The notes under the pieces were generated by a model. That model was not told the DNA's origin, did not search any database, and was given only the letters and a program-made list of their open reading frames with translations. From positions 263,542-327,541 of the forward strand of contig CAVOVE010000013.1 of assembly GCA_963699775.1 (NCBI GenBank): a stretch of DNA of 64,000 bases. Direction: 5' to 3'. Every line of letters starts with the position of its first letter. The stretch's first letter is position 1. The position numbers and the translations under genes are program-made. This DNA is from an uncultured Candidatus Rokubacteria bacterium (lineage in GTDB: Bacteria > JAUVQV01 > DATDCY01). Positions 28,836 through 54,478 of the stretch are shown piece by piece.

Positions 28836-33438
<4,603 letters not shown>

Positions 33439-33440
33439 CC

Positions 33441-34880
33441 ATGGGCAAGACGACCGGCTTCATCGACTACCAGCGCGAGGACGCTCCCAAGCGCCCCGTC
33501 GCCGAGCGGGTCCGCGACTCCCGCGAGATCGAGCAACTCCTGCCGCAGGACCGGCTCCAGCGCCAGGCGGGGCGCTGCATGGACTGCGGCGTGCCCTACT
33601 GCCACACCTTCGGCTGCCCGCTGCACAACCGCATCCCGGACTGGAACGACATGGTCTGGCGCGGCCAGTGGCGCCGCGCGCTCGATCTGCTGCACGCGAC
33701 GAACAATCTCCCGGAGGTCACCGGCAGGATCTGCCCGGCGACCTGCGAGGCCTCCTGCACGCTGGGCATCAACGCGCCGGCGGTGAGCATCCGCCAGATC
33801 GAGTTGCAGATCGTCGAGCACGGCTGGCGCGAGGGGTGGATCGTCCCGCAGCCGGCGCCCCGGCGCACCGGGAAGCGGGCCGTCGTCGTCGGCTCGGGAC
33901 CCGCGGGTCTCGCCGCCGCCCAGCAGCTGGCGCGCGCCGGCCACACGGTCGTGGTCTACGAGAAGGCCGACCGGCCGGGCGGGATCCTGCGCTACGGCAT
34001 CCCCGACTTCAAACTCGAGAAGTGGGTCCTCGACCGCCGCATCGCCCAGATGCAGGCCGAGGGGGTCGTCTTCGAGACGCGCGTCGACGCCGGACGCGAC
34101 GTGTCGGTGAACTACCTGCGCCGCACCTTCGACGCCGTCGTCGTGGCCGCCGGCTCGCGCGTACCGCGCGACGTCAGCCTCCCGGGGCGAGAGCTCGGCG
34201 GAGTCCACCTGGCCATGGACTTCCTGACGGCCCAGAACCGGCGCGTCGCCGGGGACGCGCTCGCGCCCGAGGCCGACGTCAGCGCCGCCGGGCGGACGGT
34301 GGTCGTCGTCGGTGGCGGCGACACCGGCGCCGACTGCGTCGGCACCGCTCGCCGGCAGGGAGCCCTCGCGATCACCCAGATCGAAATCCTCCCCGAGCCG
34401 CCCAGGGAGCGTTCCGTCGACAACCCCTGGCCGCACTGGCCGCAGATTCTCCGCACCGGCTCCTCCCACGACGAGGGCTGCGCCCGGATGTGGGGGATCT
34501 CGACGAAGGAGATCCTCGGCGACAAGGCGGGCCGCGTGCGCGCGCTGCGCTGCGTCAAGGTCGCGTGGGGCGCCGTCGATACCGCCGGGCGGCGCCCGTT
34601 CAAGGAGGTCGCCGGATCCGAGTTCGAACTGCAGGCCGACCTGGTGGTCTTCGCGATGGGCTTCGTGCACACCGAGCACAGCGCGCTCGTCACGGACTTC
34701 GGCCTCCAGCTCAACCCGGGGGCCTGCCTGCTGACCGACGCCGAGCTGATGACCTCGGCGCCGGGGGTCTTCGCCGCGGGAGACTGCGTCCTCGGCGCGC
34801 GGCTGATCGTCACCGCCATCGACCAGGGCCGCCGCGCGGCCGCCGCCGCGGACCGCTACCTGCGAACAAAGCAGCTCTGA
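33441..34880 (+). CDS. gltD: glutamate synthase small subunit (intact)
   Basis: CMDCGVPYC, CPATCEASC and VVVGSGPAGLAAAQQL. The start is 2 nt after the gltB stop. Confidence 0.95.
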   Translation: MGKTTGFIDYQREDAPKRPVAERVRDSREIEQLLPQDRLQRQAGRCMDCGVPYCHTFGCPLHNRIPDWNDMVWRGQWRRALDLLHATNNLPEVTGRICPATCEASCTLGINAPAVSIRQIELQIVEHGWREGWIVPQPAPRRTGKRAVVVGSGPAGLAAAQQLARAGHTVVVYEKADRPGGILRYGIPDFKLEKWVLDRRIAQMQAEGVVFETRVDAGRDVSVNYLRRTFDAVVVAAGSRVPRDVSLPGRELGGVHLAMDFLTAQNRRVAGDALAPEADVSAAGRTVVVVGGGDTGADCVGTARRQGALAITQIEILPEPPRERSVDNPWPHWPQILRTGSSHDEGCARMWGISTKEILGDKAGRVRALRCVKVAWGAVDTAGRRPFKEVAGSEFELQADLVVFAMGFVHTEHSALVTDFGLQLNPGACLLTDAELMTSAPGVFAAGDCVLGARLIVTAIDQGRRAAAAADRYLRTKQL

Positions 34881-34919: not shown

Positions 34920-35406
34920 ATGAGCCGTAGTTTCATCACCTTCGTCGCCGCCGCTGCCCTGTCCCTCGCCGCCACCCCCGCGACTCGGCGCCGAGCCTTC
35001 CCCGCTCGCCGAGGGCAAGGCGCTCTACGAGAAGACCTGCGCGACCTGCCACGCGCTCGAGCGCTCGCTCGCCAAGCAGGCGGACAAGGCCGGCTGGGAG
35101 AGCACGATCAAGAAGATGGTCGCCAACGGGGCGAAGCTCGACGAGTCGCAGTCCGGCCAGATCCTCGGCTACCTCACCGCGAAGTCCGCGTTCGAGACGA
35201 AGTGCAACACCTGTCACGACCTCCAGAAGCCCCTCGCGTCGATCAAGGACGCCGAGCAGTGGAAGGCGACCGTGCAGCGGATGGCGGCGATGAAGGCCGG
35301 GCACCTCGCGGACGCCGATGCCGGCGCGATCACGCTGTACCTCTCGCTGGTGGCGCCGGTCAAGCCTGCCGCTCCCGCGGCACCGGCTGCGCCCGGCTAT
35401 AAATAA
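34920..35406 (+). CDS. secreted di-haem c-type cytochrome (two tandem CxxCH repeats), 1 frame break near 34983
   Basis: Signal peptide MSRSFITFVAAAALSLAA. The repeats are KTCATCHALERS...WESTIKKM...ILGYL and TKCNTCHDLQKP...WKATVQRM...ITLYL. SD AGGAGG lies upstream. Confidence 0.7.
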
Positions 35407-35441
35407 CCCGCTCGTCTCGCGACAGGGGGAGGCACCGTTCG

Positions 35442-37132
35442 ATGGCGCTCATGGTGCCTCCCTCACCGCCGCTGTGGCGCCCCGGGTGGTTCGCCGAGAA
35501 GAACCTCTTCGAGGCGCTGCGTTCCGGCCTCCCCGAGGAGTACCACGTCTTTCACGACTACGCCTACCTCGGCAGCGCGCAGCCCCGGGAGGGTGCGATC
35601 GACTTTCTCGTCGTCCACCGCGAGCGCGGGACTGCTCGCGATCGAGTGCAAGGGGGACGGCGTCCACCTGCGCGGCGACGGCACCTGGATGCGCCTGCTG
35701 CCCGGCGGCCGCGAAGAGCCGCTCGACGAGAGCCCCTTCCGCCAGTCGCAGCGGCACATCAAGGAGCTCGTCGAGGAGCTCCGCCCGAAAATCGCCCGGC
35801 TCTTTCCCGAACTCGACGGCGCCTTCCCGTTCGTGTACGGCCACGCCGTCGCCTTCCCGTCCGCCGGCGCCGACGGCCTCGGCCCGCTCCCCGCCGAGGT
35901 CTCGCCGCGGATCGTCCTCTTCGGCGGGGACCTGGCCCGCCTCGGGACGCGCGTGCCGGAGATCCTCGGGTACTGGGGGAGCGGCCGCCCGCCCGTGCGC
36001 ATCCTCGACGAGCGGCAGTTCACCCAGTTCCGCAAGCACGTTCTTCTCCCCCGCTGGAGACTCGCCCCCACCTTCGGCGCACGCCTGGAGCTGGACAGCC
36101 AGGCGATCGTCCGGTTGAGCGACGAGCAGGTCGAGGTGCTCCGCAGCCTGGTCTCCGCCCCGCGCCTCTGCGTCCGCGGCGGGGCCGGCAGCGGCAAGAC
36201 GCTGCTCGCGCTCGAGCTCGCGCGCGCGGCCGCGCTCGAGGGCCGTCAGGTCCTGCTGACCTGCTTCAACATCGCCCTCGCGCGCTGGCTCGGCGAGACC
36301 ATCGCCTCCTGGGGCCGTCTCGCGGAGCGCGTCCGGGCGGCGACCTTCCACGATCTCTGCCGCGAGGCCGCCGCGGCCATCGGCGACATCCCGCCGCCGC
36401 CCCCGGCCGGCGACAAGCAGGCCGCCGGGGCGTACTGGAACGAGGTGCTGCCGGAGAGGCTCCTGGCGGCCCTCGCAGCCGGCCGGCTGCCGCGCTACGA
36501 CGCCGTGATCGTCGACGAGGGCCAGGACTTCCACCGGGACTGGTTCGACCTGCTCGAGGGACTCCTGCGCGACCCGCAGCGGGGGTCGTTCGTCGTCTTT
36601 TACGACCCGGCCCAGGACATCTTCGGCACCGGCTGCAATCTCCCCCCGTACCCCGCCACCGTCCTCGGCGTGAACTTCCGCAACACCCGCAGCATCGCCG
36701 GGCTTCCTGTCCGGGCTCGCCGAGCACGCCGCCGCCCCCTTCTCGCGCAACCCCGAGGGCGAACCGCCGGTGTTCCACGCGCAGCCGCAGGGCGCGGCCG
36801 CCGCAGCCCGCGCCGTGGAGCGGCTCGTCGAGGACCTGGTCAACGAGAAGCACGTCCCGCCCGGGCGGATCACGGTCATCGCCCCCCACACCAGGGCGAA
36901 CAGCTGCCTCAGCGGGATCGACCACCTCGCCGGGCAGCGGCTCTCGATCGACCCGCTGGACCGCGCGGGCGCCGTGCTCTGCACGACGATCCACAAGTTC
37001 AAGGGCCTCGAGTCCGACGTCGTGATTCTCGTCGACGTGCGCGAGGACGACCTCTTCTGCGGCCGCGCCTTCCTCTACACCGCGGCGGCGCGGGCGCGGG
37101 TGCTGCTGCACGTGTTCGAAGTGAACGGGTGA
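35442..37132 (+). CDS. NERD (PD-(D/E)xK nuclease-like) domain fused to a UvrD-like SF1 helicase, 2 frame breaks near 35630 and 36710
   Basis: The nuclease motif is IDFLVVH...LLAIECKG. Walker A is GGAGSGKT and Walker B is VIVDEGQDF. The C-terminal motif is TIHKFKGLESDVVIL. Confidence 0.8.
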
Positions 37133-37194
37133 GCAAAGGGAGTACAATCGGCATTCCAATGAACCATGCCGATACGCCATTGAGCAGTTCGCAG

Positions 37195-37215
37195 GGGCGG
37201 GGTTGACCCCCGCCC
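37195..37215. repeat. REP-like hairpin, family B (GGGCGGGG-ttgac-CCCCGCCC, then GAA)
   Basis: Same stem family and same trailing GAA as 28052-28072. It lies 60 nt downstream of the helicase stop and may also act as a terminator. Confidence 0.5.
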
Positions 37216-37456
37216 GAATTGAAGAACGATTGACCGGCAATGGGCTGAGGGCGAGCCAACCCGCTCCCCTACGCATGAGCAACAGGTTGGCGTATCAGGC
37301 TGGTTCGCTGGACATGGCGCCAGAGATACCATGCGGTATGTTTGATAGGCCATAAAATGACGGATATGTCGCAACGGCCGGACGACAGCATCTCGAGCCG
37401 ACGGAATAATCCTTCATTTGCAGCAGGTTACAAGAGCAGCCCGAGGCGGGTGGTCA

Positions 37457-37472
37457 TGGCACAGCACATTGC
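37457..37472 (+). promoter_or_regulatory. sigma54-like promoter upstream of glnN (TGGCAC-N6-TTGC, one nt longer than canonical)
   Basis: TGGCACAGCACATTGCT lies 45 nt upstream of ATG 37517. The spacing is off by +1, which could reflect the insertion errors seen elsewhere. Confidence 0.4.
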
Positions 37473-37516
37473 TCTACCCAGAGCATCTGAAATCAACCCT
37501 AACGGAGGGGAAACAG

Positions 37517-39615
37517 ATGGGAAAGAACGCGATACCTGATTTGTTCGGGGCCAACGTCTTCAACGACCGCATCATGAAGGAGCGCCTGCCCAAGGACGCC
37601 TACAGGGCGATGCGGGAGACGATCGACAAGGGCGCTGCCGCTCAAGCCGGAGATCGCCGCGGTCGTCGCCAACGCGATGAAGGACTGGGCGATCGAGAAG
37701 GGGGCCACGCACTACACGCACTGGTTCCAGCCCCTGACCGGGTCCACCGCCGAGAAGCACGACTCCTTCATCACGCCCACCGAGGACGGCGGGGTGATCA
37801 TGGAGTTCTCCGGCAAGCAGCTGATCCAGGGGGAGCCGGACGCCTCCTCCTTCCCGAGCGGCGGGCTGCGCGCCACCTTCGAGGCCCGCGGCTACACCGC
37901 CTGGGACGCGACCTCGCCGGCCTTCCTCAAGGAGGACGCCGCGGGCGACGTCACGCTGTGCATCCCGACCGCGTTCTACTCCTACCACGGCGAGGCGCTC
38001 GACAAGAAGACCCCGCTGCTGCGCTCGATGAGGGCCGTCTCCGACCAGGCGCTGCGCGTGCTGCGCGCGCTCGGCGACAAGACGGCCACGCGGGTCACCG
38101 CCACCGTCGGCCCCGAGCAGGAGTACTTCCTCGTCGAGAAGGAGCACTACCTCGAGCGCCTCGACCTGATCGCCTGCGGCCGCACGCTCTTCGGCGCCGC
38201 GCCGCCCAAGGGCCAGGAGCTCGAGGACCAGTACTTCGGCGCGATCAAGGACCGCGTCGCCGCCTTCATGAAGGATCTCGACATCGAGCTCTGGAAGATG
38301 GGCATCACCTCCAAGACCAAGCACAACGAGGTCGCCCCGGCCCAGTTCGAGATGGCGCCGATCTTCTCGACGACCAACATCGCCGCCGACCACAACCAGC
38401 TGGTCATGGAGACGATGCAGAAGGTGGCGCTGCGCCACGACATGGTCTGCCTGCTCCACGAGAAGCCCTACGCCGGCATCAACGGCTCGGGCAAGCACAA
38501 CAACTGGTCGCTCTCGACCGACACGGGCCTGAACCTGCTCGAGCCCGGCACACACGCCGCACGACAACGCGCAGTTCCTGGTCTTCCTCTCGGCGCTGCT
38601 GATGGCCGTCGACACCCACGCCGACATCCTGCGCGGCACCTGCGGCTCCTCCGGCAACGACCACCGGCTCGGCGCGAACGAGGCGCCGCCGGCGATCATC
38701 TCGGTCTTCCTCGGCGACGAGCTGACCAACATCTTCCTCGCGCTCGCCAAGGGGGAGAAGGCCTCCTCCCAGGCCGCCTCCTTCCTCAAGATCGGCGTCG
38801 ACACGCTGCCCGATCTGCCCAAGGACAACACCGACCGCAACCGGACCTCGCCGTTCGCGTTCACCGGCAACAAGTTCGAGTTCCGGATGGTCGGCTCCTC
38901 GCAGTCGATCTCCGGGCCGAACGTGGCGCTCAACACCACGGTCGCCGAGGCGCTCGACACCATCGCGGGGCGGCTGGAGAAGGCCAAGGACAAGAACGCC
39001 GAGATCCTCGCGATCGTCAAGGACGCCGGGAACAAGCACGGCCGGATCATCTTCAACGGCAACAACTACTCCGAAGAGTGGGTGGTCGAGGCGAAGAAGC
39101 GCGGCCTGCCGAACGTGCGCAACACGGTGGACGCCCTCAAGGCCTTCGTGACGCCCAAGTCGCTCGCGCTCTTCGCCAAGTACAAGGTGCTCTCGCCCGA
39201 GGAGACGCACTCGCGCTACGAGATCTACCTCGAGCAGTACGCCAAGCACATCAACATCGAGGCCCGGACCGCCTCGCAGATGGTGCGCCGCCAGTTCCTG
39301 CCGGCCGCGATGCTCTTCATGACCGAGCTGGGCACCTCCGTGAAGGCCGCCGGCGCCGCCGCCAAGGTCCAGAAGGCCCTGCTCGCCGAGGTCGGCAAGC
39401 TGGTCGTCGCCGCGGACAAGAACGTGAAGATCGTCGAGAAGGAGGCCGAGAAGGCCCACGCCGCGGGGAGCACCGAGAAGTCGGCGGCGGCGTTCCGCGA
39501 CAAGGTCGCCCCGGCGCTGCGCGCGCTGCGCGCCGACATCGACGCGCTCGAGAGCATCTGCCCGGCGGATCTCTGGCCGGTGCCGACGTACGCGGATCTG
39601 CTGTTCAAGTTGTAA
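37517..39615 (+). CDS. glnN: glutamine synthetase type III (2 frame breaks near 37635 and 38555)
   Basis: About 700 aa with [66 protein letters not shown] and [17 protein letters not shown]. Confidence 0.9.
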
Positions 39616-43364: not shown

Positions 43365-43380
43365 CGGCACACAGATTGCT
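43365..43380 (+). promoter_or_regulatory. sigma54 promoter candidate CGGCAC-ACAGA-TTGCT with canonical -24/-12 spacing
   Basis: GG and GC dinucleotides are separated exactly as in the TGGCACG-N4-TTGC consensus. It lies about 120 nt upstream of the mvhD start, within a 670-bp lower-GC intergenic region. Confidence 0.55.
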
Positions 43381-43497
43381 TAATTTGATCAGTTACTTTG
43401 CACAGAGGCTGTGAAGCAGGCACGGGGGTGGAACGATGAGCAGGAAGCGGGGCAACGGCGGCACGAGAGCCGAGGAATGCGCGAAAGGATCCGCGTG

Positions 43498-43896
43498 ATG
43501 GGCGCCATGAAGATCACCGCATTGTGCTGCAGCAACGCCCTGTACGACGGGCTCAAGCCGGGGGAGTACTCCCGGGCGTACGTCGAGGGCGTGCAGATCA
43601 CCGAGACCCCCTGTTCGGGGAAGGTCGACCCGATCTACCTGCTCAAGGCCTTCGAGAAGGGTGCGGACCTCGTCGTGGTGCTCGCCTGCGACCAGCGGCT
43701 CTGCGCCACGATCGAGGGGAGCAAGAGGATCCACAAGCGCATCGCGCGCACGAAGCAACTCCTCGCCGAGGCCGGGCTGGAGCCCGAGCGGCTGGTGCTG
43801 CGGATCGTGAAGCGGCCTGCGCTGCAGTCGCTCGACGTCCTTTTCACGGGCATCAAGGAAGCCGCCAAGGAACTCGGGCCATCGCCCGTCCGCTGA
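43498..43896 (+). CDS. mvhD: MvhD/FlpD-family iron-sulfur electron-transfer protein
   Basis: MKITALCCSNALY...ETPCSGKVDPIYLLKAFEKGADLVVVLACDQRLCATIEGSKR matches the methyl-viologen-reducing hydrogenase delta subunit pattern. The start is 43498 or 43507. Confidence 0.85.
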   Translation: MGAMKITALCCSNALYDGLKPGEYSRAYVEGVQITETPCSGKVDPIYLLKAFEKGADLVVVLACDQRLCATIEGSKRIHKRIARTKQLLAEAGLEPERLVLRIVKRPALQSLDVLFTGIKEAAKELGPSPVR

Positions 43897-43921
43897 CAGC
43901 GCCACACCGGAGGAAACACAG

Positions 43922-44590
43922 ATGATCGTTGGTGAACGCAAACCGTTCGGGGAGATCCAGGGTCTTCTCGGCCGGTACAACAACATCCTCCTCGTCGGGT
44001 GCGGGACCTGCGTCAAGGTCTGCTTCACCGGCGGCGACAAGGAGGTCGCGGTGCTGGCCTCCCAGCTCCGGCTCGCCGGCGCGAAGGGGAAGAAAAAGCC
44101 GGTCATCGACGAGATGACCATCGAGCGCCAGTGCGAGATCGAGTTCGTCGACGAGGTCGCAAAGCAGTTCAAGGGGCACGACGTGATCATGTCGATGGCC
44201 TGCGGCGCCGGCGTGCAGATGCTGGCCGAGCGCTTCCCGGACACCCCGGTGCTCCCGGCGGTCAACACGACCTTCCTCGGCCTGCTGCAGAAGCAGGGCC
44301 ACTTCGTCGAGAACTGCCAGGGCTGCGGCACCTGCGTGCTCGGCACCTTCGGCGGGATCTGCCCGGTCAGCCGCTGCGCCAAGAGCCTCTTCAACGGCCC
44401 CTGCGGCGGCTCCCAGAGCGGGAAGTGCGAGATCGGCGGCGACGTCCCCTGCGCCTGGCAGCAGATCATCGACCGGCTCGCCAAGCTCAAGCAGCTGGAC
44501 AACCTCAAGGCGCACGTCCCCCCCAAGAACTGGAGCACCGCGCGCCACGGCGGCCCGAGAAAACTGACCCGGGAGGACAACATACTCTAA
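43922..44590 (+). CDS. metV: MetV (methylenetetrahydrofolate reductase C-terminal-domain, Cys-rich subunit)
   Basis: LLVGCGTCVKVC, ENCQGCGTCVLG and ICPVSRCAKSLFNGPCGG. SD GGAGGA lies upstream. Confidence 0.85.
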   Translation: MIVGERKPFGEIQGLLGRYNNILLVGCGTCVKVCFTGGDKEVAVLASQLRLAGAKGKKKPVIDEMTIERQCEIEFVDEVAKQFKGHDVIMSMACGAGVQMLAERFPDTPVLPAVNTTFLGLLQKQGHFVENCQGCGTCVLGTFGGICPVSRCAKSLFNGPCGGSQSGKCEIGGDVPCAWQQIIDRLAKLKQLDNLKAHVPPKNWSTARHGGPRKLTREDNIL

Positions 44591-45585
44591 TGGCTACGAC
44601 GAAGAACTCACAACCGACTCCTGGCGTCGTGACCGCTGCGGGCACCGCCCGCAGGGGCTCCGTACGAGCTCGTCAGAGCAATCTGCAGCGCGTCCTCGCC
44701 GGCGGCGCCTTCGCCGTCACCGCGGAGTGCGGCCCGCCGCGCAGCGCCGACGCCGGCGTGGTCATCCGCAAGGGGCTGCTGCTGAAGAAGTTCGTGGACG
44801 CCGTCAACGTCACCGACAACCAGACGGCGATCGTGCGCATGAGCAGCATCGCCGCCGCCGCCATCCTCAAGTCGGTCGGCGTCGAGCCGGTCTTCCAGAT
44901 GGTCTGCCGGGACCGCAACCGGATCGCGCTGCAGAGCGACCTGCTCGGCGCCTCGGCGCTCGGGCTGCGCAACATGCTCTGTCTCAGCGGCGACCACCAG
45001 AAGTTCGGCAACCAGGCGCAGGGGAAGAACGTCTTCGACATCGACTCGATGCAGCTGCTGCGCGCCGTGACCGACATGACCGAGAAGGGGCGCTTCATCG
45101 GCGACGAGTTCGCGATGGACACGCCGCCGCAGATCTTCGCCGGCGCCGCCGAGAACCCGTTCGCCGACCCCTTCGAGTACCGGGCGGCGCGCCTGGAGAA
45201 GAAGATCGAGAGCGGCGCGAAGTTCATCCAGACCCAGTGCGTCTTCAACCTCGAGAAGTTCGCGACCTGGATGAAGGAGCTCCGCAAGCGCGGGCTGCAC
45301 AAGCGCGTGCACATCCTGGCCGGCGTCACGCCGCTCAAGAGCGCGGGGATGGCCCGCTACATGCGCGACAAGGTCGCCGGAATGGACGTGCCGGACGCGG
45401 TCATCGCGCGGATGGAGAAGTTCAAGGGCGAGACGGCCCGCGCCGAGGGGATCACGATCTGCGTCGAGACGATCCAGCGGCTCCGCAAGATGGAAGGGGT
45501 CGCCGGCGTGCACATCATGGCGATCGAGTGGGAGGAAGCGGTGCCGGAGATCGTCGAGAGGGCCGGCCTGCTGCCGCGGCCGTAA
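44590..45585 (+). CDS. metF: 5,10-methylenetetrahydrofolate reductase MetF
   Basis: TAATG overlap with metV. AVTAECGPPR, DAVNVTDN, ALGLRNMLCLSGDH and AGAAENPF indicate an MTHFR TIM-barrel pattern. Confidence 0.85.
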   Translation: MATTKNSQPTPGVVTAAGTARRGSVRARQSNLQRVLAGGAFAVTAECGPPRSADAGVVIRKGLLLKKFVDAVNVTDNQTAIVRMSSIAAAAILKSVGVEPVFQMVCRDRNRIALQSDLLGASALGLRNMLCLSGDHQKFGNQAQGKNVFDIDSMQLLRAVTDMTEKGRFIGDEFAMDTPPQIFAGAAENPFADPFEYRAARLEKKIESGAKFIQTQCVFNLEKFATWMKELRKRGLHKRVHILAGVTPLKSAGMARYMRDKVAGMDVPDAVIARMEKFKGETARAEGITICVETIQRLRKMEGVAGVHIMAIEWEEAVPEIVERAGLLPRP

Positions 45586-45587
45586 CG

Positions 45588-46998
45588 ATGGCTAAGAAAT
45601 ATCACATCGCCGCCAAGGCCGCCCCGCCGCGGTTCACGATCATCGGCCGGCACGGCATCGTCGATTTCAACGAGGACTGCGCCGGCGCCTGCCACCACTG
45701 CGTCAAGAAAGAGTGCATCTACGACATCTACAAGAAGGAAGGGATCTTCACGCGGGAGATGCAGGGGGACCTGCACTACCTCTACAACTGCATGAACTGC
45801 CTGCGCTGCGTGCAGAACTGCACCCGCGGGGTCGTGACGCGGACGATCAACCCGGAGTTCCGCTGGCTGGGGGACGACTACTGGAAGCCCGAGATCCTGC
45901 TGAGCCTCTGGTACCAGTCGGAGACCGGCAAGATCCCGGTCTCCGGCGCCGGCTACCGCGGCCCGTTCTCCGGCCCCGGGTTCGACGCGATGTGGACGGA
46001 CATGTCCGAAATCGTGCGCCCGACCCGCGACGGCATCCACGGCCGCGAGTACATCAGCACCTCGGTCGACCTGGGCGCGAAGCTGCGCGACCTGGCGTTC
46101 GACGAGAAGGGGCAGATCAGCGTCGAGGTCCCCCCCGTGCACGAGCTGCCGGTGCCGTTCGTGCTGGCGAACCCGCACTTCGGCGACTTCTCGCCGCAGG
46201 TCTACGAGGCCGCCGCCCGCGCGGCGCACGAGATGGGCACGCTCTACGTGATCGATCCCGCGCTGGTCACCGGGAATCTGAAGCCGTACCGGGCGGCGCT
46301 GGCGCCGGCCGTGACGGGTGCGACCATCGCCATGAACCGCGAGCAGATCCGCGGCGCGAAGCTCGTGCAGCTGGACTTCGACGAGCAGTTCGCTCGCCGG
46401 CATCGCGGCCATCAAGGCCATCGAGCCGACTGCGGTCGTCAGCGTCAAGGCGCCGATCGACGCCGACTCCCCCGCGCTGGCCGAGCGGATGGTTCTGGCG
46501 GGCGTCGAGTCGATCACCTTCGTCGCGAACCACCACGGCCGCAGCGGCGCCTTCGGCTCCGGCGAGTTCCTCAAGGAGTCGTTCCGGCGCATCCACACCC
46601 ACCTGGTGGAGCGCGGCCTGCGCGATCTGGTGACGCTGATCGCCGCCGGCGGCATCGCCCAGGCCGAGCACATGGCCAAGATCATCATCTGCGGCGCCGA
46701 CATGGTGGTGCTGGACATCCCGTTCCTGATCGCGCTGGAGTGCCGGATGTGCCTGAACTGCACGAAGGGGCGGCCCTGCCCGGTCGACATCGCGCACGCG
46801 CCCGTCGACTTCGGGGCCCGCCGGATGACGAACCTCGGCTCCTCCTGGCACAGCCAGCTGCTGGAGGTGCTCGGGGCGATGGGCATCCGCGAGGTGCGCC
46901 GGCTGCGCGGCGAGTACGGGCGCGCGATGTTCTACGAGGACCTCGAGCGCGAGACGTTCCAGGCGCTCTTTGCCGGCGGGAAAGCGAGCAAGTCATGA
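45588..46998 (+). CDS. Fe-S protein related to glutamate synthase FMN/TIM-barrel domain 2 but lacking the AQGAKPGxGG loop (1 frame break near 46390)
   Basis: N-terminal Cys clusters CAGACHHCVKKEC and CMNCLRCVQNC. The C-terminal part, AAGGIAQAEHMAKIIICGADMVVLD...ALECRMCLNCTKGRPC, parallels the next ORF and the GltB 3Fe-4S region. It starts 2 nt after the metF stop. Confidence 0.65.
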
Positions 46999-48516
46999 GC
47001 GAGACCAAACAGGTCGTGACCGCGAAGATCACCCGGAAGGGGTCGAAGATCCCGACCCGTTTTCGCAACACCATCGGCAAGTACAAGGTCATCAGGACCG
47101 ACCGCTGCATCGGCTGCGGCAAGTGCGCGAAGCTCTGCCCCCACGGCGTGCACGTGCGATACAAGGGCTACAACCGCACGGTGCGCCCGAAGGACCACCT
47201 CTGCCGCGGTTTCCACTGCCGCGAGAACTGCGACTGCTACTGCATCGACAAGTGCCCGGTCGGCGCCCTGAGCCTGGGCCTGAACCCGGTCTACGAGTCG
47301 ATGGGAGACCCGCGCTGGACTCCCGACATGATCCTGAGCACCTGGGATCAGGCCGAGAACGGCACGATCACCAACGACACGCTCGAGACCAACCTCGGCA
47401 AATCCGGCGGCGGCTTCGACAAGCTGCGGCTCAATTTCCCGAAGGAGCCGGCCAGGAAGCTCAAGCCCTCGCAGATCGACACCCGGCTCAAGCTCAACAA
47501 GCGCAAGGGCCGGCAGGTGGTCATCGACGTGCCCTGGTACGGCGGCGGGATGTCCTACGGCTCGGTCAGCCCGGCGACGATGGTCGGCAAGGCCCACGCC
47601 GGCCGCGTCTGGAACACCTTCACCTGCACCGGCGAGGGGGGCTACCCGCCGCACCTGTTCCCGTACGACGACCACGTGATCACCCAGGTGGCCACCGGGC
47701 TCTTCGGCGTGCGCGAGGAGTCGATCCAGCGCGTCAAGATCGTCGAGTTCAAGTACGCGCAGGGCGCCAAGCCCGGCCTCGGCGGGCACCTGCTCGGCGA
47801 CAAGAACACCCCGGCCGTCGCGAAGATGCGCGAGGCGGTCGCCGGCGTGTCGCTCTTCTCGCCGTTCCCGTTCCACACCGTCTACTCGATCGAGGACCAC
47901 AAGAAGCACGTCGACTGGATCCTGGCGATGAACCCCGACGCGCTGGTCTCCTCCAAGGTCTCGACCCCGAACGACGTGGACATGGTCGCGGTCGGCAGCT
48001 ACTACGCCGGCTCGCACATCGTGCACATCGACGGCAGCTACGGCGGCACCGGCGCGGCGCCGGACATCGCGAAGAAGAACATCGCGATGCCGATCGAGTA
48101 CGCGATCCCGAAGGTCCACAACTTCCTGGCCAACGAGGGGATCCGCGACAAGGTCACGCTGATCGCCTCGCGGCGGCATCCGCAACGTGCACGACATGGT
48201 CAAGGCGATCTGCCTCGGCGCCGACGGCGTGGTCATCGGCACCGCCGAGCTGGTCGCGCTGGAGTGCATCCGCTGCGGCGCCTGCGAGAGCGGCCGGGGC
48301 TGCGCGCGCGGGATCGCGACGACCGACCTGGAGCTGAGCCTGCAGTTCGACTACGAGTGGGCCTCCCGGCGGATCGTGAATCTCTACAAGTCCTGGCACG
48401 AGCAGCTCGTGGACATCATGGTCCGCTTCGGCGTCGCGACCGTCCACGAGATGGTCGGGCGCATCGACCTGCTGCACCACGTCGACTATTCCAACCAGCG
48501 GGAGGGCGGCGAATGA
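46995..48516 (+). CDS. archaeal-type glutamate synthase FMN subunit with N-terminal ferredoxin domain (1 frame break near 48170)
   Basis: CIGCGKCAKLCPHG, CIDKCPVGAL, FKYAQGAKPGLGGHLLG, SPFPFHTVYSIEDH, IDGSYGGTGAAP and ALECIRCGACESGRGC. ATGA overlap with the preceding ORF. Confidence 0.85.
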
Positions 48517-48524
48517 ACGCCAGG

Positions 48525-48593
48525 CGGGAGGGGGTCAACCCCTCCCCTACGACGGAAAAGGTGCTACGTAGGGGAGGGGTTCATCCCCTCGCG
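48525..48593. repeat. inverted pair of family A REP-like elements
   Basis: CGGGAGGGGGTCAACCCCTCCCCTACGA (48525-48552) and its inverted counterpart TACGTAGGGGAGGGGTTCATCCCCTCGCG (48565-48593). The same unit occurs at 27975-28002. Confidence 0.65.
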
Positions 48594-48613
48594 AAACAGC
48601 CGGAGGTTCGATC

Positions 48614-50085
48614 GTGAAAACCAATTCCCCTGATCAGATTCGCAGGGTCATCGCTTCGCGCGAGCGGCTCGTACGATGGCATGCCGCCCACGTTCCAGCA
48701 CAAGGCCGAGGAGGAGGGCGGCTGCGGCGTCACCGGCTTCGCCTGCACGATCCCGGTGGCCGGGCGGCACATCTTCACGCCCTCGAAGCAGATGCACAAC
48801 CGCGGCAACGGCAAGGGCGGCGGGATCGCGGCGGTCGGCTTCGACCCGGACCAGCTCGGGATCTCGCGCGAGGTGCTCGAGTCGCACTACTGCCTGCAGA
48901 TCGCGGCGCTCGACCCGGAGTGCATCGAGGAGCTGGCAGCGAAGCACATCCGCTCCGTCTTCGACATCGCCGCCGAGTCCAAGCTCAAGACCGTCAAGAA
49001 CTGGCGGGAGCTGCCGAGCCTCGAGGTGCGGCCGCCGGACATCTTCCGCTACTTCGTCCGGGTCAAGCCGCGACGCGCTCGACGCGTTCATCAACGAGAA
49101 CGAGCTGCAGGCGATGGACCGCGAGACCGCCGAGGACGAGTTCGTCTACCAGAACTCGCTGAAGCTCAACCGCGAGTACTACGCCTCGCTCGGCGAGAAG
49201 AAGGCCTTCGTCGTCTCGCAGGGGCGCAACATGCTGGTGCTCAAGATCGTCGGCTACGCCGAGGACGTCGTGCGCTACTACTGCATGGACGACTTCAAGG
49301 CGCACGTCTGGATCGCCCACCAGCGCTACCCGACCAAGGGGCGCGTCTGGCACCCGGGCGGCGCGCACCCGTTCGTCGGACTCAACGACGCGCTGGTGCA
49401 CAACGGCGACTTCGCCAACTACCAGTCGATGGTCGACTACCTCAAGCAGCGCGGCCTGCGCACGATGTTCCTGACCGACACCGAGGTCGCGATCCTCGTC
49501 TTCGACTACCTGAGCCGGGTGCACAACTACCCGCTCGAGTACATCATCGAGGCGCTGGCGCCGACCACCGAGATGGACTTCGACCTGCTCCCCAAGGCGA
49601 AGCAGGAGATCTACCGCAAGATCCAGATCGCGCACATGCACGGCTCGCCCGACGGGCCGTGGTTCTTCATCATCGCGCGCAACAAGAAGTACGAGCGCGA
49701 GTTCCAGCTGCTCGGGATCACCGACACCGCGATGCTGCGGCCGCAGGTCTTCGCGGTCCAGGACGGCGAGGTCCAGATCGGCCTGGTCTGCTCGGAGAAG
49801 CAGGCGATCGACGCGACGCTCAAGTCCCTGGCGGCCGAGGACCCGCGCTTCTGCACCGTGGCCGACAAGTACTGGAACGCGCGCGGCGGCAGCAGCAGCA
49901 ACGGCGGCTCGTTCATCTTCAGCATCAAGGACGACCCGAACAGCCCGACCGGCAAGACGCTGACCTGCGTCGACAAGTTCGGCAACCCGGTCACGACGCC
50001 CGAGGGGCAGACGCACTGCGACGTCAGCGTGCCGGTCGCTTCCTTCTTGCCAGCGCGAAAACAAACCCCCTGGCTCCCCCTTTGA
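48614..50085 (+). CDS. class II (Ntn) glutamine amidotransferase subunit, GltB domain 1-like (2 frame breaks near 48675 and 49071)
   Basis: GGCGVTGF carries the nucleophile Cys. HQRYPTKG and VHNGDFANY parallel HQRYSTNT and AHNGEINTL of gltB. GTG 48614 has GGAGG 7 nt upstream; ATG 48681 is an alternative start. The last 8-15 codons and the stop lie inside the element at 50063-50177. Confidence 0.8.
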
Positions 50086-50177
50086 CCAAGGGAGCTCGGT
50101 TCCGTTGCTTCTCCTCGTTCAAAGGGAACTCGAACCGTCTCATCTCCCCCTTTCGCAAAGGGGGAAAGAGGGGGTTT
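50063..50177. repeat. 115-bp MITE/REP-like element with 22-bp imperfect terminal inverted repeats
   Basis: The left arm is AAACCCCCTGGCTCCCCCTTTG. The reverse complement of the right arm is AAACCCCCTCTTTCCCCCTTTG, a 19/22 match. There is an internal direct repeat CTCCCCCTTT at 50075 and 50145. Confidence 0.6.
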
Positions 50178-51421
50178 GGAGACCGAGATCAAAAGGCACC
50201 TGCAGGACCGGCACCCCCGGCAAGCTGGCCGCCGCGGCGCTGAAGAAGCTCAAGGCCTGGGACTACGACGCCCTGCGCCGCTTCTGCGCCGACCTGGTCG
50301 CGGCGGCGAACGCGAAGGACGCGCTGCGCGAGCCGGCGATCGCGACGCTGACCGCGCTGATCGACACCCCCTGCCACACCGGCGCGAAGAAGCGCGCCTC
50401 GGTACTGCAGATCCTGCACATCGCGCTGCACGAGATCTTCAACGCGCTGCCGCCGGTGGAATCAACCGTCAAGAGCAGCTACAAGCGCATCGCGTGGAAG
50501 AACCGCAAGAAACTGCGCAAGCCGGCCAAGGGCGAGAAGACCCTCGTCATCGACGCCGACGGCTTCGAGCCCGAGCTGGAGGACCGCGACTCCAGGCTGA
50601 TGGTCGACGGCTTCCGCCTCGGCTGGAAGAACTTCATCGCCTACAACCTGGTCGGGCAGCGCTTCCACGGGGTCGGCCTCGGCCCGGACACCGACGGTGT
50701 GCGCATCGACCTCTACGACAGCTCCGGCGACTACGAGGCCTCGGGCATCGACGGGCTGGAGATGCAGATCCACGGCAACGCGCAGGACCAGCTCGGCCAG
50801 ATCATGAAGGCCGGCAAGCTCGTCGTCCACGGCGACGTCGGCCAGACCTTCATGTACGGCGCCAAGGGGGGCGAGGTCTACATCCGGGGCAACGCCGCCG
50901 GCCGCCCGCTGATCAACGCCGTGGGCAAGCCGCGCGTCGTGATCAACGGCACCTGCCTCGACTACCTCGCCGAGTCCTTCATGGCCGGCAACCCGCTGCA
51001 GGGCGGCGGCTTCGTGATCCTCAACGGCCTGGAGTTCGACGACTTCGGCGGGTACGCCCCGCGCAGGCGCCCCTTCCCGGGGAGCAACCTCTTCTCGCTG
51101 GCCTCCGGCGGCGCGATCTACATCCGCGACCCCGAGCACAAGACCGTCGGCGAGCAGCTCAACGGCGGCCACTTCCACCCGCTGGCCGACGCCGACTGGG
51201 CGCTGATCAGGCCGTACCTCGTCGAGAACGAGAAGCTCTTCGGCATCAAGCTCGACGACCTGCTGACGCACAACGGCACGAAGCTCGCGCCCGGCCAGGT
51301 GTTCCGCAAGGTCGGCGCGATGAAGCCCGCCGAGGCGGTCAAGATCATCGCCGACGACGACGTGAACCTCGGCATGATCGACTCCGTCGGCAAGAAGAAG
51401 CGCAAGAAGGGCGCAGCATAG
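50176..51421 (+). CDS. GXGXG-motif subunit (GltB domain 3 / FwdC-like), start uncertain, probably 1 frame break near 50215
   Basis: GNAQDQLGQIMKAGKLVVHGDVGQTFMYGAKGGEVYIRGNAAGRPLINAVGKPRVVINGTCLDYL. The unambiguous coding frame runs from about 50225. TTG 50176 lies in the right arm of the element. Confidence 0.8.
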
Positions 51422-51446
51422 CGCCCACTCGCAACGAGCACGACCA

Positions 51447-51513
51447 GGGGACAGAATTCAAGTCTGTCCCCGGACGAAACGACAAAGCCCCGGCGGCAAC
51501 CCCCCCGGGGCTT
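51447..51513 (+). terminator. two tandem perfect 9-bp hairpins after the GXGXG gene
   Basis: GGGGACAGA-attcaag-TCTGTCCCC (51447-51471) and AAGCCCCGG-N11-CCGGGGCTT (51485-51513). The second is followed by GTTCTGT. Confidence 0.55.
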
Positions 51514-51607
51514 GTTCTGTCCGGGCGCCTCGATCCGGGAGCCCGGGCACATCTTGCCCGGCTCCGCGACGTTGCCCGTTTACCTCACGCCGTGCGCCAC
51601 ACGTTCA

Positions 51608-54104: not shown

Positions 54105-54345
54105 CGCCGCGGCGTGCGCATCGACCTCCACGACCGCTCCGGCGACGACACCGCCTCCGGCAGCGACGGGCTGGAGATGCAGATCCACGGCAACGCGCAG
54201 GACCGGCTCGGTCAGATCTTGAAGGCCGGCAAGTTCGTGGTCTGCGGGGATGTCGGCCAGACCTTCATGTACGGCGCCAAGGGGGGGCGAAGTCTACATC
54301 CGGGGCAACGCCGCCGGCCGCCCGCTGATCAACGCGGTTGGCAAG
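54105..54345 (+). pseudogene. about 240-bp fragment paralogous to the GXGXG gene (matches 50691-50929), with an internal frame break
   Basis: The direct nucleotide alignment is long and nearly gap-free: GCGCATCGACCTC...GGGCTGGAGATGCAGATCCACGGCAACGCGCAGGACC...GGCCAGACCTTCATGTACGGCGCCAAGGGGGG...ATCCGGGGCAACGCCGCCGGCCGCCCGCTGATCAACGC. It encodes GVRIDLHDRSGDD...GLEMQIHGNAQDRLGQILKAGKFVVCGDVGQTFMYGAKGG/EVYIRGNAAGRPLINAVGK. There is no homology outside these bounds. Confidence 0.8.
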
Positions 54346-54478
54346 ACGCTGGCCGACGCCAACAGATTCGGCAGCCCGGTCAGGGCGCCGGAGGGCCGGA
54401 CGCACGGGAACAGCGACAACCCCGATGCTCCTTCATCCTCCCGGAAGCCGAAGAGTGTCAACACTATGAGCAGGCGTC

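What the first reader, a model, noticed from the sequence alone, without database searches (positions are those of the whole stretch)
43365..51513. Sigma54-fronted seven-gene operon joining MvhD-MetV-MetF to a split, archaeal-type glutamate-synthase-like module, with no HdrA or Rnf partner in sight
- Seen in sequence: mvhD, metV, metF, a Cys-rich GltB-domain-2 paralogue, a ferredoxin-fused GltB FMN subunit, a class II amidotransferase subunit and a GXGXG subunit all lie on one strand.
- The gaps between them are 25, -1, 2 and -4 nt, plus two short gaps filled by palindromic elements.
- A canonical-spacing sigma54 motif lies upstream and tandem hairpins lie downstream.
- Established knowledge: in anaerobes MetFV normally takes electrons through HdrABC-MvhD or an RnfC-like subunit. 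MvhD is a small Fe-S adaptor that normally docks onto HdrA. The three-subunit GOGAT with a ferredoxin domain on the FMN subunit is the archaeal layout.
- The same window already carries a complete canonical gltBD, so this module is not needed for ordinary GOGAT activity.
- Inference: the Fe-S/flavin proteins of GltB ancestry may be the electron-input partner of MetFV-MvhD. Alternatively the operon may couple the methylene/methyl-THF redox pair to glutamine-dependent reductive amination.
- Two further alternatives are an N-methylglutamate-synthase-like enzyme feeding C1 units to THF, or fortuitous juxtaposition.
Basis: partly seen in the sequence, partly recalled or inferred. Interest (0 to 1): 0.75.

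Follow-up and report, generated by a model that had tools for sequence, protein, structure and literature searches.

The report
MvhD-MetFV-linked split glutamate synthase operon
A gene cluster that joins a folate-reducing enzyme (MetFV) and a small iron-sulfur adaptor (MvhD) to an unusual split glutamate synthase recurs in hundreds of bacterial species from about ten phyla, so it probably encodes one undescribed redox complex that ties one-carbon metabolism to nitrogen assimilation.

Summary
The genes are real and lie on one strand: mvhD, metV, metF, a Cys-rich GltB-FMN paralogue (G4), a ferredoxin-fused GltB FMN subunit (G5), a class II amidotransferase (G6) and a GXGXG domain (G7). At least five +1 frameshifts interrupt G4, G5 and G6/G7. 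They occur throughout the window, so they are probably assembly errors. G6 and G7 are one fused gene in all relatives; here a palindromic insert carrying a stop codon splits them.

The adjacency is not fortuitous. At least 576 species genomes carry G4. In 86 loci examined, MvhD-G4-G5-G6/7 is an invariant core and about 87% also hold metF and/or metV. Neighbours are nitrogen-assimilation genes. Other phyla attach hdrCBA, GltD/HdrA or NuoEF-like genes, or fuse a FAD-linked oxidase to G4; one bacterium encodes that version as a single 3016-aa protein.

Best reading: a nitrogen-regulated split glutamate synthase in which G4 is the electron-input adaptor and MvhD/MetV wire MetF's flavin to it. The direction of electron flow is unresolved. 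I found no description of this cluster in the searchable literature. New variant of a known kind; high interest.

The parts
43365..43380 (+). Sigma54-type -24/-12 promoter-like motif, CGGCACACAGATTGCT
   Evidence: 1 mismatch; 1.17 matches expected by chance per window. Conserved in L009, and similar motifs lie upstream of mvhD in L004/L005, L021, L057 and L025, with none at 9/10 or better in the reverse-complement control.
43498..43896 (+). mvhD (FlpD family [2Fe-2S] adaptor). Start is ATG 43498 or ATG 43507; the homologue call in L009 matches 43507.
   Evidence: Pfam PF02662, E 1.6e-24. L009 gene call. Orthologous to the MvhD of loci that lack metVF.
43922..44590 (+). metV (Cys-rich Fe-S subunit of MetFV-type methylene-THF reductase)
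   Evidence: PF12225/DUF5981, E 4.8e-36. No solved relative in the PDB.
44590..45585 (+). metF (methylene-THF reductase, MetFV type). Overlaps the metV stop codon by 1 nt.
   Evidence: PF02219, E 3.2e-40. NF006396 MTHFR part, 223 bits. Aligns to solved MTHFRs including the LxGD motif.
45588..46998 (+). G4: Fe-S-rich paralogue of the GltB FMN subunit. It has an N-terminal CX3CX2CX4C plus CX2CX2CX3C region, a TIM barrel and a CX2CX2CX5C motif. Proposed electron-input adaptor. The frame is broken by a +1 insertion at about 46394.
   Evidence: The 95%-identical homologue P0001 is intact.
46995..48516 (+). G5: glutamate synthase FMN subunit with an N-terminal 2x[4Fe-4S] ferredoxin domain and a CX2CX2CX5C motif. 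The frame is broken by a +1 insertion at about 48171.
   Evidence: PF01645 positions 56-368 of 369, E 1e-85, plus Fer4. NF008730 gltB, 209 bits. Frame analysis.
48517..48613 (.). REP-like palindromic element (GGGAGGGG..CCCCTCCC arms) in the G5/G6 spacer
   Evidence: Fold dG -53.8 kcal/mol, z -4.8. Further copies at 27978-27998 and 37193-37216 and in L009.
48614..50085 (+). G6: class II (Ntn) glutamine amidotransferase half of the fused G6/7 gene. Starts at GTG 48614. +1 frameshifts at about 48677 and about 49070. Ends at TGA 50083-50085, which lies inside the inserted element.
   Evidence: Invariant EGGC-GV(T)GF, HNRGNGKGGG and HNGDFANY motifs in 34 homologues.
50045..50195 (.). Palindromic insert in the G6/G7 linker. 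Relative to the closest homologue P0123 it adds 90 nt, is in frame and carries one TGA.
   Evidence: (dG -56 kcal/mol, z -2.0; 6 of 200 shuffles fold as well).
50105..51421 (+). G7: GXGXG beta-helix half of the fused G6/7 gene. The homologous sequence resumes at about 50204-50219 after a further +1 shift at about 50208. TTG 50105 is only the first possible restart codon.
   Evidence: PF01493, E 9e-14. tblastn with fused homologues.
51447..51515 (+). Two GC-rich hairpins after the stop codon (terminator-like)
   Evidence: dG -68.6 kcal/mol for 51422-51560, z -4.45.
28893..34865 (+). Context: canonical gltB (in three frames because of +1 insertions) and gltD
   Evidence: Pfam GATase_2, Glu_syn_central, Glu_synthase and GXGXG; Fer4_20 plus Pyr_redox_2. 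Insertions at 32483 and 32490 relative to L009.
37614..39612 (+). Context: type III glutamine synthetase. In L009 it lies directly upstream of mvhD.
   Evidence: GSIII_N, Gln-synt_C and Gln-synt_C-ter. L009 gene order.

Best explanation
The operon encodes one conserved multi-subunit iron-sulfur flavoenzyme built around a split glutamate synthase.

Proposed roles
- G6/7 hydrolyses glutamine.
- G5 (2x[4Fe-4S] domain, a further 4-Cys cluster and FMN) reduces 2-iminoglutarate to glutamate.
- G4 is a full-length paralogue of G5. It has lost the 2-oxoglutarate loop but kept its Fe-S motifs, and I propose it is the electron-input adaptor.
- MvhD ([2Fe-2S]) is the constant connector on G4.
- In this lineage MvhD and MetV continue the wire to the flavin of MetF. 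One Fe-S chain would then link the methyl-/methylene-THF site to the glutamate-forming site.
- Expression is probably nitrogen-controlled (sigma54 motif, GS/GOGAT neighbourhood).

Shown here
- Domain identities and the intact catalytic motifs of the glutaminase.
- The invariant MvhD-G4-G5-G6/7 core.
- Frequent but dispensable MetVF.
- Interchangeable redox modules at the G4 end in other lineages: HdrCBA/GltD-HdrA, NuoEF-like, or a fused FAD-linked oxidase.
- Rosetta-stone fusions.

Inferred
- Physical complex formation, the electron path and the regulation.

Favoured direction in Hdr-less operons such as this one (about 0.35-0.4 on its own)
- MetFV is the donor module: 5-methyl-THF + 2-oxoglutarate + glutamine -> 5,10-methylene-THF + 2 glutamate.
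- By my own estimate from textbook potentials this is downhill by roughly 0.1 V.

The frameshifts are taken to be assembly errors, so the operon is read as functional.
For: - Domains.
- Glutaminase competence: Cys nucleophile after a propeptide of about 36 aa, and the RG and HNG..N motifs, invariant in 34 homologues.
- G5 matches the full Glu_synthase model.
- G4 and G5 are end-to-end paralogues (25% identity, E 1e-34). G4 lacks the 'YAQGAKPGLGG' segment.
- The G4 barrel is modelled with confidence and resembles FMN TIM-barrel oxidoreductases. It aligns to GltB residues 977-1162, including the cluster motif.
- Conservation: at least 576 species genomes and 364 clusters at 50% identity.
- Synteny in 86 loci: MvhD is present wherever upstream sequence exists. 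Type A (as here) about 45 loci, type B 5, type C (no metVF) about 9, type D about 20, type E 3.
- Type A and type C MvhDs are orthologous.
- Nitrogen context: glnA, amtB, glnB/K, glnD, glnE, carAB, nifB, gltBD, GSIII, NadE and sigma54 activators. Sigma54 motif.
- Modular donors: hdrCBA-mvhD-metV, GltD/HdrA and NuoEF-like genes; FAD_binding_4/FAD-oxidase_C plus Fer4 fused to G4, followed by G5 and G6/7; the whole set in one 3016-aa ORF.
- Tight coupling of the genes: -1, 2 and -4 nt.
- Purified MetFV enzymes do not use NAD(P)H, oxidise methyl-THF only with a higher-potential dye, and their physiological carrier is called enigmatic (PMC8578170).
- No other gene family recurs in more than 8 of the 86 loci.
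Against: - No biochemical or expression data exist. Complex formation is inferred from synteny and fusions only.
- The core occurs without metVF (type C), so it must be able to take electrons from something else, for example ferredoxin at the N-terminal ferredoxin-like domains.
- In type D loci NAD(P)H-oxidising modules are present. There MetF is more naturally an acceptor, as in the Moorella MetFV-HdrABC-MvhD complex (PMC5861303). This weakens the donor reading.
- 5-Methyl-THF is not a general reductant. It needs a methyl source or a reversed Wood-Ljungdahl pathway, and I could not check for either in this organism.
- The sigma54 motif is not significant by itself and is found in only a minority of lineages.
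- In this assembly G4, G5 and G6/7 are frame-broken, and G6/7 carries an in-frame stop. Decay in this strain cannot be excluded.
- The most conserved stretch of G4 (residues 118-152) is modelled with low confidence, and its role is unknown.
Confidence: 0.6

Rival explanations
1. Shared-input, two-sink complex. Reduced ferredoxin, or an unlinked donor docking on MvhD, feeds the Fe-S chain of G4/G5. Electrons then leave at two reductive sites: G5 (glutamate synthesis) and, through MvhD-MetV, MetF (methylene-THF to methyl-THF).
For: - The core exists without metVF (type C), so it has its own electron entry.
- G4 and G5 both carry N-terminal 2x[4Fe-4S] ferredoxin-like domains.
- MetFV enzymes reduce methylene-THF with reduced ferredoxin or viologen in vitro (PMC8578170).
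- In type D loci NAD(P)H modules are present, and MetF is most simply an acceptor, as in Moorella (PMC5861303).
Against: - It gives no reason why MTHFR should be tied to a nitrogen-regulated GOGAT in about ten phyla.
- In type F the position taken by MvhD-MetVF is filled by a FAD-linked oxidase of the 2-hydroxy-acid dehydrogenase kind, which is normally an electron donor.
- Spending ferredoxin on two high-potential acceptors is wasteful (inference).
Confidence: 0.3
2. Flavin-based electron-bifurcating (or confurcating) system. The exergonic GOGAT and/or MTHFR reaction pays for ferredoxin reduction from NAD(P)H. HdrA (or NuoF) would be the bifurcating flavoprotein, encoded elsewhere in this genome.
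For: - Type D loci place hdrCBA, GltD/HdrA fusions or NuoEF-like genes and a second mvhD directly after G6/7.
- MvhD docks on HdrA in the solved Mvh-Hdr complex, and the second acceptor of the MetFV-HdrABC-MvhD complex is still unknown (PMC5861303).
- Others have assumed that MetFV-MvhD clusters use an unlinked HdrABC (PMC6085437).
Against: - No Hdr, NuoF-type or GltD-like gene lies in the operon in any type A, B, C or E locus.
- None beyond the canonical gltD lies in this 64-kb window.
- The whole genome could not be searched.
Confidence: 0.12
3. Two independent enzymes that are merely co-transcribed: a plain ferredoxin-type split GOGAT, and a MetFV-MvhD reductase that works with a partner encoded elsewhere.
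For: Both halves have known stand-alone relatives. MetVF can sit before G4, after G6/7, or be absent.
Against: - MvhD stays with G4 when metVF is absent, and it is orthologous in both cases.
- In type D, metF and metV are split to the two ends of the glt-like genes.
- In types A and D metF directly precedes G4, and the junctions are tight (2 nt here).
- The association holds across about ten phyla.
Confidence: 0.06
4. An N-methylglutamate-synthase-like or other amine-exchanging enzyme that passes C1 units to THF, not a true GOGAT.
For: - MgsABC of the N-methylglutamate pathway are built from the same three GltB domains (my own knowledge).
- A THF enzyme and a glutamine-synthetase-family gene are nearby.
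- G4 has an invariant loop of unknown function.
Against: - No DAO/sarcosine-oxidase-type NMG dehydrogenase or short GmaS-type gene was found among the window reading frames scanned. The neighbour is a GSIII of about 700 aa.
- The best family match of G5 is the glutamate synthase large subunit.
- Neighbours in other genomes are amtB, glnB/K, glnA, glnD, glnE and carAB.
- MetF makes or uses methyl-THF, which is not an intermediate of that pathway.
Confidence: 0.04
5. In this particular strain the glt-like part is decaying: the frameshifts and the stop in the G6/7 linker are real. This concerns the state of the genes and is compatible with any of the mechanisms above.
For: Five +1 shifts in G4-G7 but none in mvhD-metV-metF. 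An inserted palindrome with an in-frame TGA. A scrambled relic of G7/G6 lies 2.7 kb downstream.
Against: - The same uncompensated +1 insertions break gltB, GSIII and a helicase, and frame changes are seen all along the window.
- GC3 stays at about 0.99 on both sides of each shift, so there has been no drift.
- Close relatives (P0001, P0123, L002, L009) are intact.
Confidence: 0.1

Closest known systems
Archaeal-type (split) glutamate synthase: separate amidotransferase, ferredoxin-fused FMN subunit and GXGXG subunit
   Same: - A GltB FMN domain with an N-terminal 2x[4Fe-4S] domain (G5).
- A class II amidotransferase with intact nucleophile motifs and a GXGXG domain (G6/7).
- No GltB central domain and no GltD in the operon.
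   Different: - Amidotransferase and GXGXG are fused in one protein of about 880 aa.
- A second, degenerate FMN-subunit paralogue (G4) and MvhD are constant extra subunits.
- MetFV, Hdr, NuoEF-like or FAD-oxidase modules are attached.
- The electron donor is unknown.
Bacterial NADPH-GOGAT (GltBD) and ferredoxin-GOGAT (GltS)
   Same: The same three catalytic domains and an Fe-S cluster next to FMN. G4 and G5 both align to GltB residues of about 977-1162. Nitrogen-regulated neighbourhood.
   Different: - Split into subunits.
- The cluster motif has four Cys (CX2CX2CX5C) rather than the three-Cys [3Fe-4S] motif I recall for GltB.
- GltD is replaced by other input modules.
- A canonical gltBD coexists in the same window.
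MetFV-HdrABC-MvhD methylene-THF reductase of Moorella thermoacetica (and MetFV-type MTHFRs in general)
   Same: mvhD-metV-metF gene order and families. In type D relatives the full hdrC-hdrB-hdrA-mvhD-metV string is present.
   Different: - No hdrABC in this operon or window.
- The cluster partner is a GOGAT module.
- The context is nitrogen assimilation rather than the Wood-Ljungdahl pathway.
- MvhD stays with G4 even when MetFV is missing.
Dihydropyrimidine dehydrogenase / GltD-type 'flavin - Fe-S wire - FMN barrel' enzymes
   Same: The logic of a donor flavoprotein wired through [4Fe-4S] clusters to an FMN TIM barrel (my own knowledge). The fused FAD-oxidase-FeS-G4-G5-G6/7 proteins follow this plan.
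   Different: Different donor modules. There is an extra degenerate barrel (G4) and a glutaminase.

Membership tests
Glutamate synthase (GOGAT), split/archaeal type | Class II (Ntn) amidotransferase with N-terminal Cys nucleophile and oxyanion-hole motifs | tested here: met
   EGGC37GV(T)GF after a leader of about 36 aa, plus HNRGNGKGGG and HNGDFANY, invariant in 34 homologues. The window copy has the same N-terminal motif. The Pfam match itself is weak (GATase_6, E 1.6e-6).
Glutamate synthase (GOGAT), split/archaeal type | FMN-binding synthase domain (PF01645) with an Fe-S cluster motif | tested here: met
   G5 matches positions 56-368 of 369, E 1e-85. ECIRCGACESGRGC motif. The frame is interrupted once in this assembly.
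Glutamate synthase (GOGAT), split/archaeal type | GXGXG beta-helix domain | tested here: met
   PF01493, E 9e-14. FwdC-like repeats in the PDB search.
Glutamate synthase (GOGAT), split/archaeal type | Glutamine- and 2-oxoglutarate-dependent glutamate formation | not testable with these tools
   Needs an enzyme assay.
Bacterial GltBD | Central domain (PF04898) and a GltD small subunit in the same operon | tested here: not met
   There is no significant central-domain match (G4 E 0.0016, below the curated cut-off). No GltD in the operon. The canonical gltBD is a separate locus at 28.9-34.9 kb.
MetFV-type methylene-THF reductase | MetF (PF02219) with an adjacent MetV (PF12225) | tested here: met
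   The genes overlap by 1 nt. The LSGD motif aligns with LRGD of solved MTHFRs.
MetFV-HdrABC-MvhD complex (Moorella type) | hdrCBA adjacent to, or co-occurring with, mvhD-metVF | tested here: not met
   No Hdr family was detected among the window reading frames scanned or in any type A locus. The feature is met only in type D relatives. The rest of this genome was not available.
MvhD/FlpD | PF02662 domain with its conserved Cys residues | tested here: met
   E 1.6e-24 over profile positions 1-123 of 123. The CC..PCSG..AC...C pattern is visible in the sequence.
N-methylglutamate synthase pathway (MgsABC, GmaS, NMG dehydrogenase) | Companion gmaS and mgdABCD (sarcosine-oxidase-like) genes | tested here: not met
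   No DAO/sarcosine-oxidase-type or short GS-like gene was found among the window reading frames scanned or among recurrent neighbours in 86 loci.
Sigma54-dependent operon | GG-N10-GC promoter upstream and a nearby enhancer-binding protein | tested here: inconclusive
   The motif is present, conserved in L009 and found in some distant loci. By itself it is not above chance, and no Sigma54_activat gene is in the window. Such genes adjoin the cluster in L091 and five other loci.

The most novel reading that the evidence does not exclude
This is a previously unrecognised class of glutamate synthase that takes its electrons from interchangeable dehydrogenase modules plugged into the G4 adaptor. 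In this organism the module would be MetFV-MvhD, so the enzyme would be a 5-methyl-THF:2-oxoglutarate/glutamine oxidoreductase. That would name a physiological redox partner for a MetFV-type methylene-THF reductase, which has so far been called enigmatic. It would also couple one methyl-group oxidation to each nitrogen assimilated.
Probability: 0.3. Interest if true: 0.9.

Novelty: new variant of a known kind. Interest (0 to 1): 0.72.

Why it matters
**Two open questions**
- The physiological electron carrier of MetFV-type methylene-THF reductases is unknown (PMC8578170; PMC5861303).
- To my knowledge, the electron donor of split, archaeal-type glutamate synthases is also poorly defined.

**What this cluster offers**
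- It places the two enzymes in one tightly conserved unit in hundreds of species from about ten phyla, many of them environmentally important: Desulfobacterota, Nitrospirota, Planctomycetota, Chloroflexota and Rokubacteria.
- It shows that the glutamate-synthase module accepts alternative redox modules: Hdr, NuoEF-like and FAD-linked oxidase.
- It gives a concrete, testable complex, and a way to ask how anaerobes and soil bacteria pay for nitrogen assimilation.
- It also warns that genome surveys which score 'MetFV + MvhD' as a marker of a bifurcating Hdr complex may be counting this system instead.

Tried and rejected
- **Literature.** Nine full-text searches combined MetV/MetFV/MvhD/MTHFR with glutamate synthase, and five papers were read. 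None describes the cluster. One paper I wanted (a comparative genomics study of sulfate reducers) is not held.
- **Pseudogene reading of the frameshifts.** Set aside as the main explanation. The same insertions occur in unrelated genes of the window, and GC3 is undisturbed.
- **Sigma54 motif as a family-wide feature.** Found in only about 7 of the roughly 80 loci scanned. My first scan had an indexing error and was discarded.
- **Foldseek of the G4 model.** It returned only generic FMN TIM-barrel oxidases and did not show what G4 binds.
- **PDB sequence searches.** No relative of MetV, and only GltB/GltS fragments for G4.
- **Search for further conserved partners** (metH, folD, methyltransferases) by all-against-all clustering of flanking ORFs. 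None recurs in more than 8 of the 86 loci.
- **Second metF, hdrABC or gltBD elsewhere in type A genomes.** Not possible.
- **First attempt at the type D upstream 'MvhD' in L034.** I used a wrong frame and it gave no Pfam hit. The FlpD call for type D rests on L090 and L091.

Full report
**1. What is in the sequence**

The window has about 67% G+C, and GC3 is close to 0.99 in coding regions. On the + strand between 43.4 and 51.4 kb lie seven coding regions:

| Gene | Coordinates | Family evidence |
|---|---|---|
| mvhD | 43498 or 43507 to 43896 | FlpD, E 1.6e-24 |
| metV | 43922-44590 | DUF5981, E 4.8e-36 |
| metF | 44590-45585 | MTHFR, E 3.2e-40 |
| G4 | 45588-46998 | Partial Glu_synthase match plus N-terminal Cys motifs |
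| G5 | 46995-48516 | Fer4 plus full Glu_synthase, E 1e-85 |
| G6 | 48614-50085 | Class II amidotransferase |
| G7 | to 51421 | GXGXG |

- The G5/G6 spacer is a strong palindrome. It belongs to a small REP-like family with other copies in the window and in a related contig.
- Two hairpins follow the last stop codon.
- A GG-N10-GC sigma54-type motif lies about 130 nt upstream of mvhD.

**2. Corrections to the observation**

*Frameshifts.* G4, G5 and G6 each change reading frame inside the gene. The frame plot and the translations place +1 shifts near 46394, 48171, 48677 and 49070, and another near 50208 in the G6/G7 linker.

- Contig L009 is 88-94% identical in DNA and has intact genes. Against it, the G4 shift is a one-base insertion in the window.
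- Equally uncompensated one-base insertions break gltB (32483, 32490), a helicase (36707) and the type III glutamine synthetase (38552).
- Frame changes are seen all along the window, and GC3 is unchanged across each shift.
- I therefore read them as residual insertion errors of the assembly. Real decay cannot be excluded without reads.

*G6 and G7 are one gene in relatives.* They form one fused protein of 846-923 aa in every relative. Against the closest homologue (P0123, 88-95% identical), the window's linker holds a 90-nt in-frame palindromic insert with a TGA at 50083-50085.

It matches the N-terminus of the homologues.

**3. Surroundings**

- Upstream lie glutamine-dependent NAD synthase, canonical gltB and gltD, a cytochrome c, a helicase and a type III glutamine synthetase. 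A response regulator and a PAS-kinase pair then follow on the other strand.
- In L009 the glutamine synthetase is only about 440 nt from mvhD, so the regulator pair is an insertion in this lineage.
- The rest of the window holds a nuo cluster and unrelated genes. There is no Hdr, Rnf or sarcosine-oxidase-type gene.
- The nearest named genome is a Candidatus Rokuibacteriota MAG, at 87% identity for G4.

**4. Is the adjacency conserved?**

Yes, very strongly.

- G4 has thousands of database relatives.
- A scan of one genome per species found at least 576 genomes with G4. They include Desulfobacterota, Nitrospirota, Planctomycetota, Chloroflexota, Verrucomicrobiota, Omnitrophota, Hydrogenedentota, Latescibacterota, Actinomycetota, Leptospirales and Rokubacteria.
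- A profile search of 1.84 billion representatives gave 364 clusters at E <= 1e-30.

I mapped the seven proteins and nitrogen genes onto 86 non-redundant loci. MvhD precedes the cluster in every locus that has upstream sequence, and G4-G5-G6/7 always follow.

| Type | Gene order | Loci |
|---|---|---|
| A (the window) | mvhD-metV-metF-G4-G5-G6/7 | about 45 |
| B | metVF after G6/7 | 5 |
| C | no metVF | about 9 |
| D | mvhD-metF-G4-G5-G6/7 followed by hdrC-hdrB-(gltD-like)-hdrA-mvhD-metV, or by NuoE/NuoF-like genes | about 20 |
| E | mvhD-metV, no metF | 3 |

- About 87% of loci hold metF and/or metV.
- The MvhD of type A is closest to that of type C, so MvhD belongs to the glt-like module.
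- Recurrent neighbours are glnA, amtB, glnB/K, glnD, glnE, carAB, nifB, gltBD, NadE and sigma54 activators.
- No other family recurs in more than 8 of the 86 loci.

**5. What the parts are**

- *G6/7.* It keeps the Cys nucleophile behind a leader of about 36 residues, and the RG and HNG..N motifs of Ntn amidotransferases. These are invariant in 34 homologues. Glutamine hydrolysis is therefore expected.
- *G5.* It is a complete FMN synthase subunit with a ferredoxin domain and a CX2CX2CX5C motif.
- *G4.* It is an end-to-end paralogue of G5 (25% identity, E 1e-34).
  - It lacks the segment holding 'YAQGAKPGLGG' and the GEGG motif.
  - It keeps two N-terminal cluster motifs, the phosphate-binding 'SGGIA..AEH.AK.I.CGAD' region and CX2CX2CX5C.
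  - Its barrel is modelled with high confidence and resembles FMN-dependent TIM-barrel oxidoreductases.
  - Its most conserved stretch, 'PVSGAGYRGPFSGPGFD.MWTDMSEIVRPTRDGIHGREY', is modelled poorly. It may be an interface or a cofactor loop.
- *MetF.* It aligns with solved MTHFRs, including the LxGD motif.
- *MetV.* It has no solved relative.

**6. Fusions**

Some genomes fuse G4 to G5 (P0258, P0264, P0284). Others fuse a FAD_binding_4/FAD-oxidase_C flavoprotein and a 4Fe-4S dicluster domain to the N-terminus of G4. G5 and G6/7 follow, and there is no recognisable mvhD or metVF upstream (L093). One bacterial contig encodes FAD-oxidase, Fe-S domain, G4, G5, amidotransferase and GXGXG in a single 3016-aa ORF.

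These Rosetta stones support two points:
- G4, G5 and G6/7 act together.
- The position in front of G4 is a socket for a redox module.

**7. Mechanism**

*Shown.* There is an invariant core of MvhD-G4-G5-G6/7 with all the catalytic parts of a glutamate synthase. It sits in nitrogen-assimilation neighbourhoods, with exchangeable redox modules at the G4 end.

*Inferred.* The proteins form one complex. G4 relays electrons to the FMN of G5. In this operon MvhD and MetV extend the relay to the flavin of MetF.

*Undecided: the direction of flow.*
- For Hdr-less operons I favour MetFV as donor (methyl-THF to GOGAT). No other input module is encoded. The equivalent position in type F is a dehydrogenase-type flavoprotein. 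Purified MetFV enzymes oxidise methyl-THF only to acceptors of higher potential and do not use NAD(P)H (PMC8578170). My own estimate from textbook potentials puts the GOGAT couple about 0.1 V above methyl-/methylene-THF.
- Against this, the core works without metVF in type C. In type D, NAD(P)H modules make MetF look like an acceptor, as in Moorella (PMC5861303). Methyl-THF also needs a source.
- I put about 0.6 on the single-complex, nitrogen-regulated GOGAT reading. Within it, I put about 0.35-0.4 on the donor direction and about 0.3 on the two-sink version.
- A bifurcating arrangement with an unlinked HdrA (about 0.12), independent enzymes (about 0.06) and an NMG-like enzyme (about 0.04) follow.

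**8. Comparison with what is known, and novelty**

- The system shares its catalytic domains with split archaeal-type and bacterial glutamate synthases. It shares mvhD-metVF with the Moorella-type reductase.
- It differs in three ways: the fused G6/7, the extra G4 and MvhD subunits, and the attached redox modules.
- Surveys of bifurcating enzymes noted that metFV and mvhD co-localise without hdrABC, and assumed Hdr was encoded elsewhere (PMC6085437). They did not mention the glt-like genes.
- Nine literature searches found no description of the cluster.
- I therefore rate it a new variant of a known kind. Interest is high because it bears on two open questions about electron donors.

Noticed in passing
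window 32483, 32490, 36707, 38552, 46394, ~48171, ~48677, ~49070, ~50208: Uncompensated single-base insertions break many genes of the window: gltB, a helicase, GSIII, G4, G5 and G6/7. The pattern suggests an insertion-prone, unpolished assembly. Any gene call on this contig needs frameshift-aware translation.
   Followed up: partly
window 48525-48590, 27978-27998, 37193-37216; L009 1417-1445 and 9986-9998: A REP-like palindromic element (GGGAGGGG-loop-CCCCTCCC arms) recurs in intergenic spacers of this organism and its close relative.
   Followed up: partly
window 54110-54405: A scrambled relic of the operon. 54110-54349 is 90% identical in DNA to G7 (50695-50933). The adjoining 54340-54405 is 80% identical to the 3' end of G6 (49951-50016).
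   Followed up: partly
window 39.7-43.1 kb: A response-regulator/PAS protein and a PAS histidine kinase on the minus strand sit between GSIII and mvhD. In the related contig L009 these two genes are only about 440 nt apart, so this block is an insertion in the window's lineage.
   Followed up: partly
L094 3001-12051 (protein P0387); also P0398, P0280, P0286/L093: A single 3016-aa bacterial ORF joins a FAD-linked oxidase, an Fe-S domain, G4, G5, an amidotransferase and GXGXG. Shorter versions fuse the oxidase and Fe-S domain to G4 only. The substrate of the oxidase is unknown.
   Followed up: partly
L031, L034, L041, L060, L070, L080, L090, L091 (Hdr type); L038, L075, L087, L089 (NuoEF type): In Nitrospirota, Planctomycetota and others the same glt-like module is followed by hdrC-hdrB, then GltD/HdrA-like or NuoE/NuoF-like genes. 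Where the sequence extends far enough, a second mvhD plus metV follow. In these loci metF and metV lie at opposite ends of the cluster.
   Followed up: partly
window 3.5-13.8 kb: A nuo-type cluster (NuoB, C, H, J and three antiporter-like subunits). I saw no NuoE/F/G-type gene among the frames scanned. It may be a complex-I-like enzyme without the NADH module.
   Followed up: no
L050 612-2360 and five other loci: A further Glu_synthase-like paralogue of about 580 aa occurs near the cluster in six Desulfobacterota-type loci.
   Followed up: no
window 26298-39612: The operon closes a nitrogen-assimilation island: glutamine-dependent NAD synthase, gltB, gltD and a type III glutamine synthetase. 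NadE also adjoins the cluster in five other genomes.
   Followed up: partly
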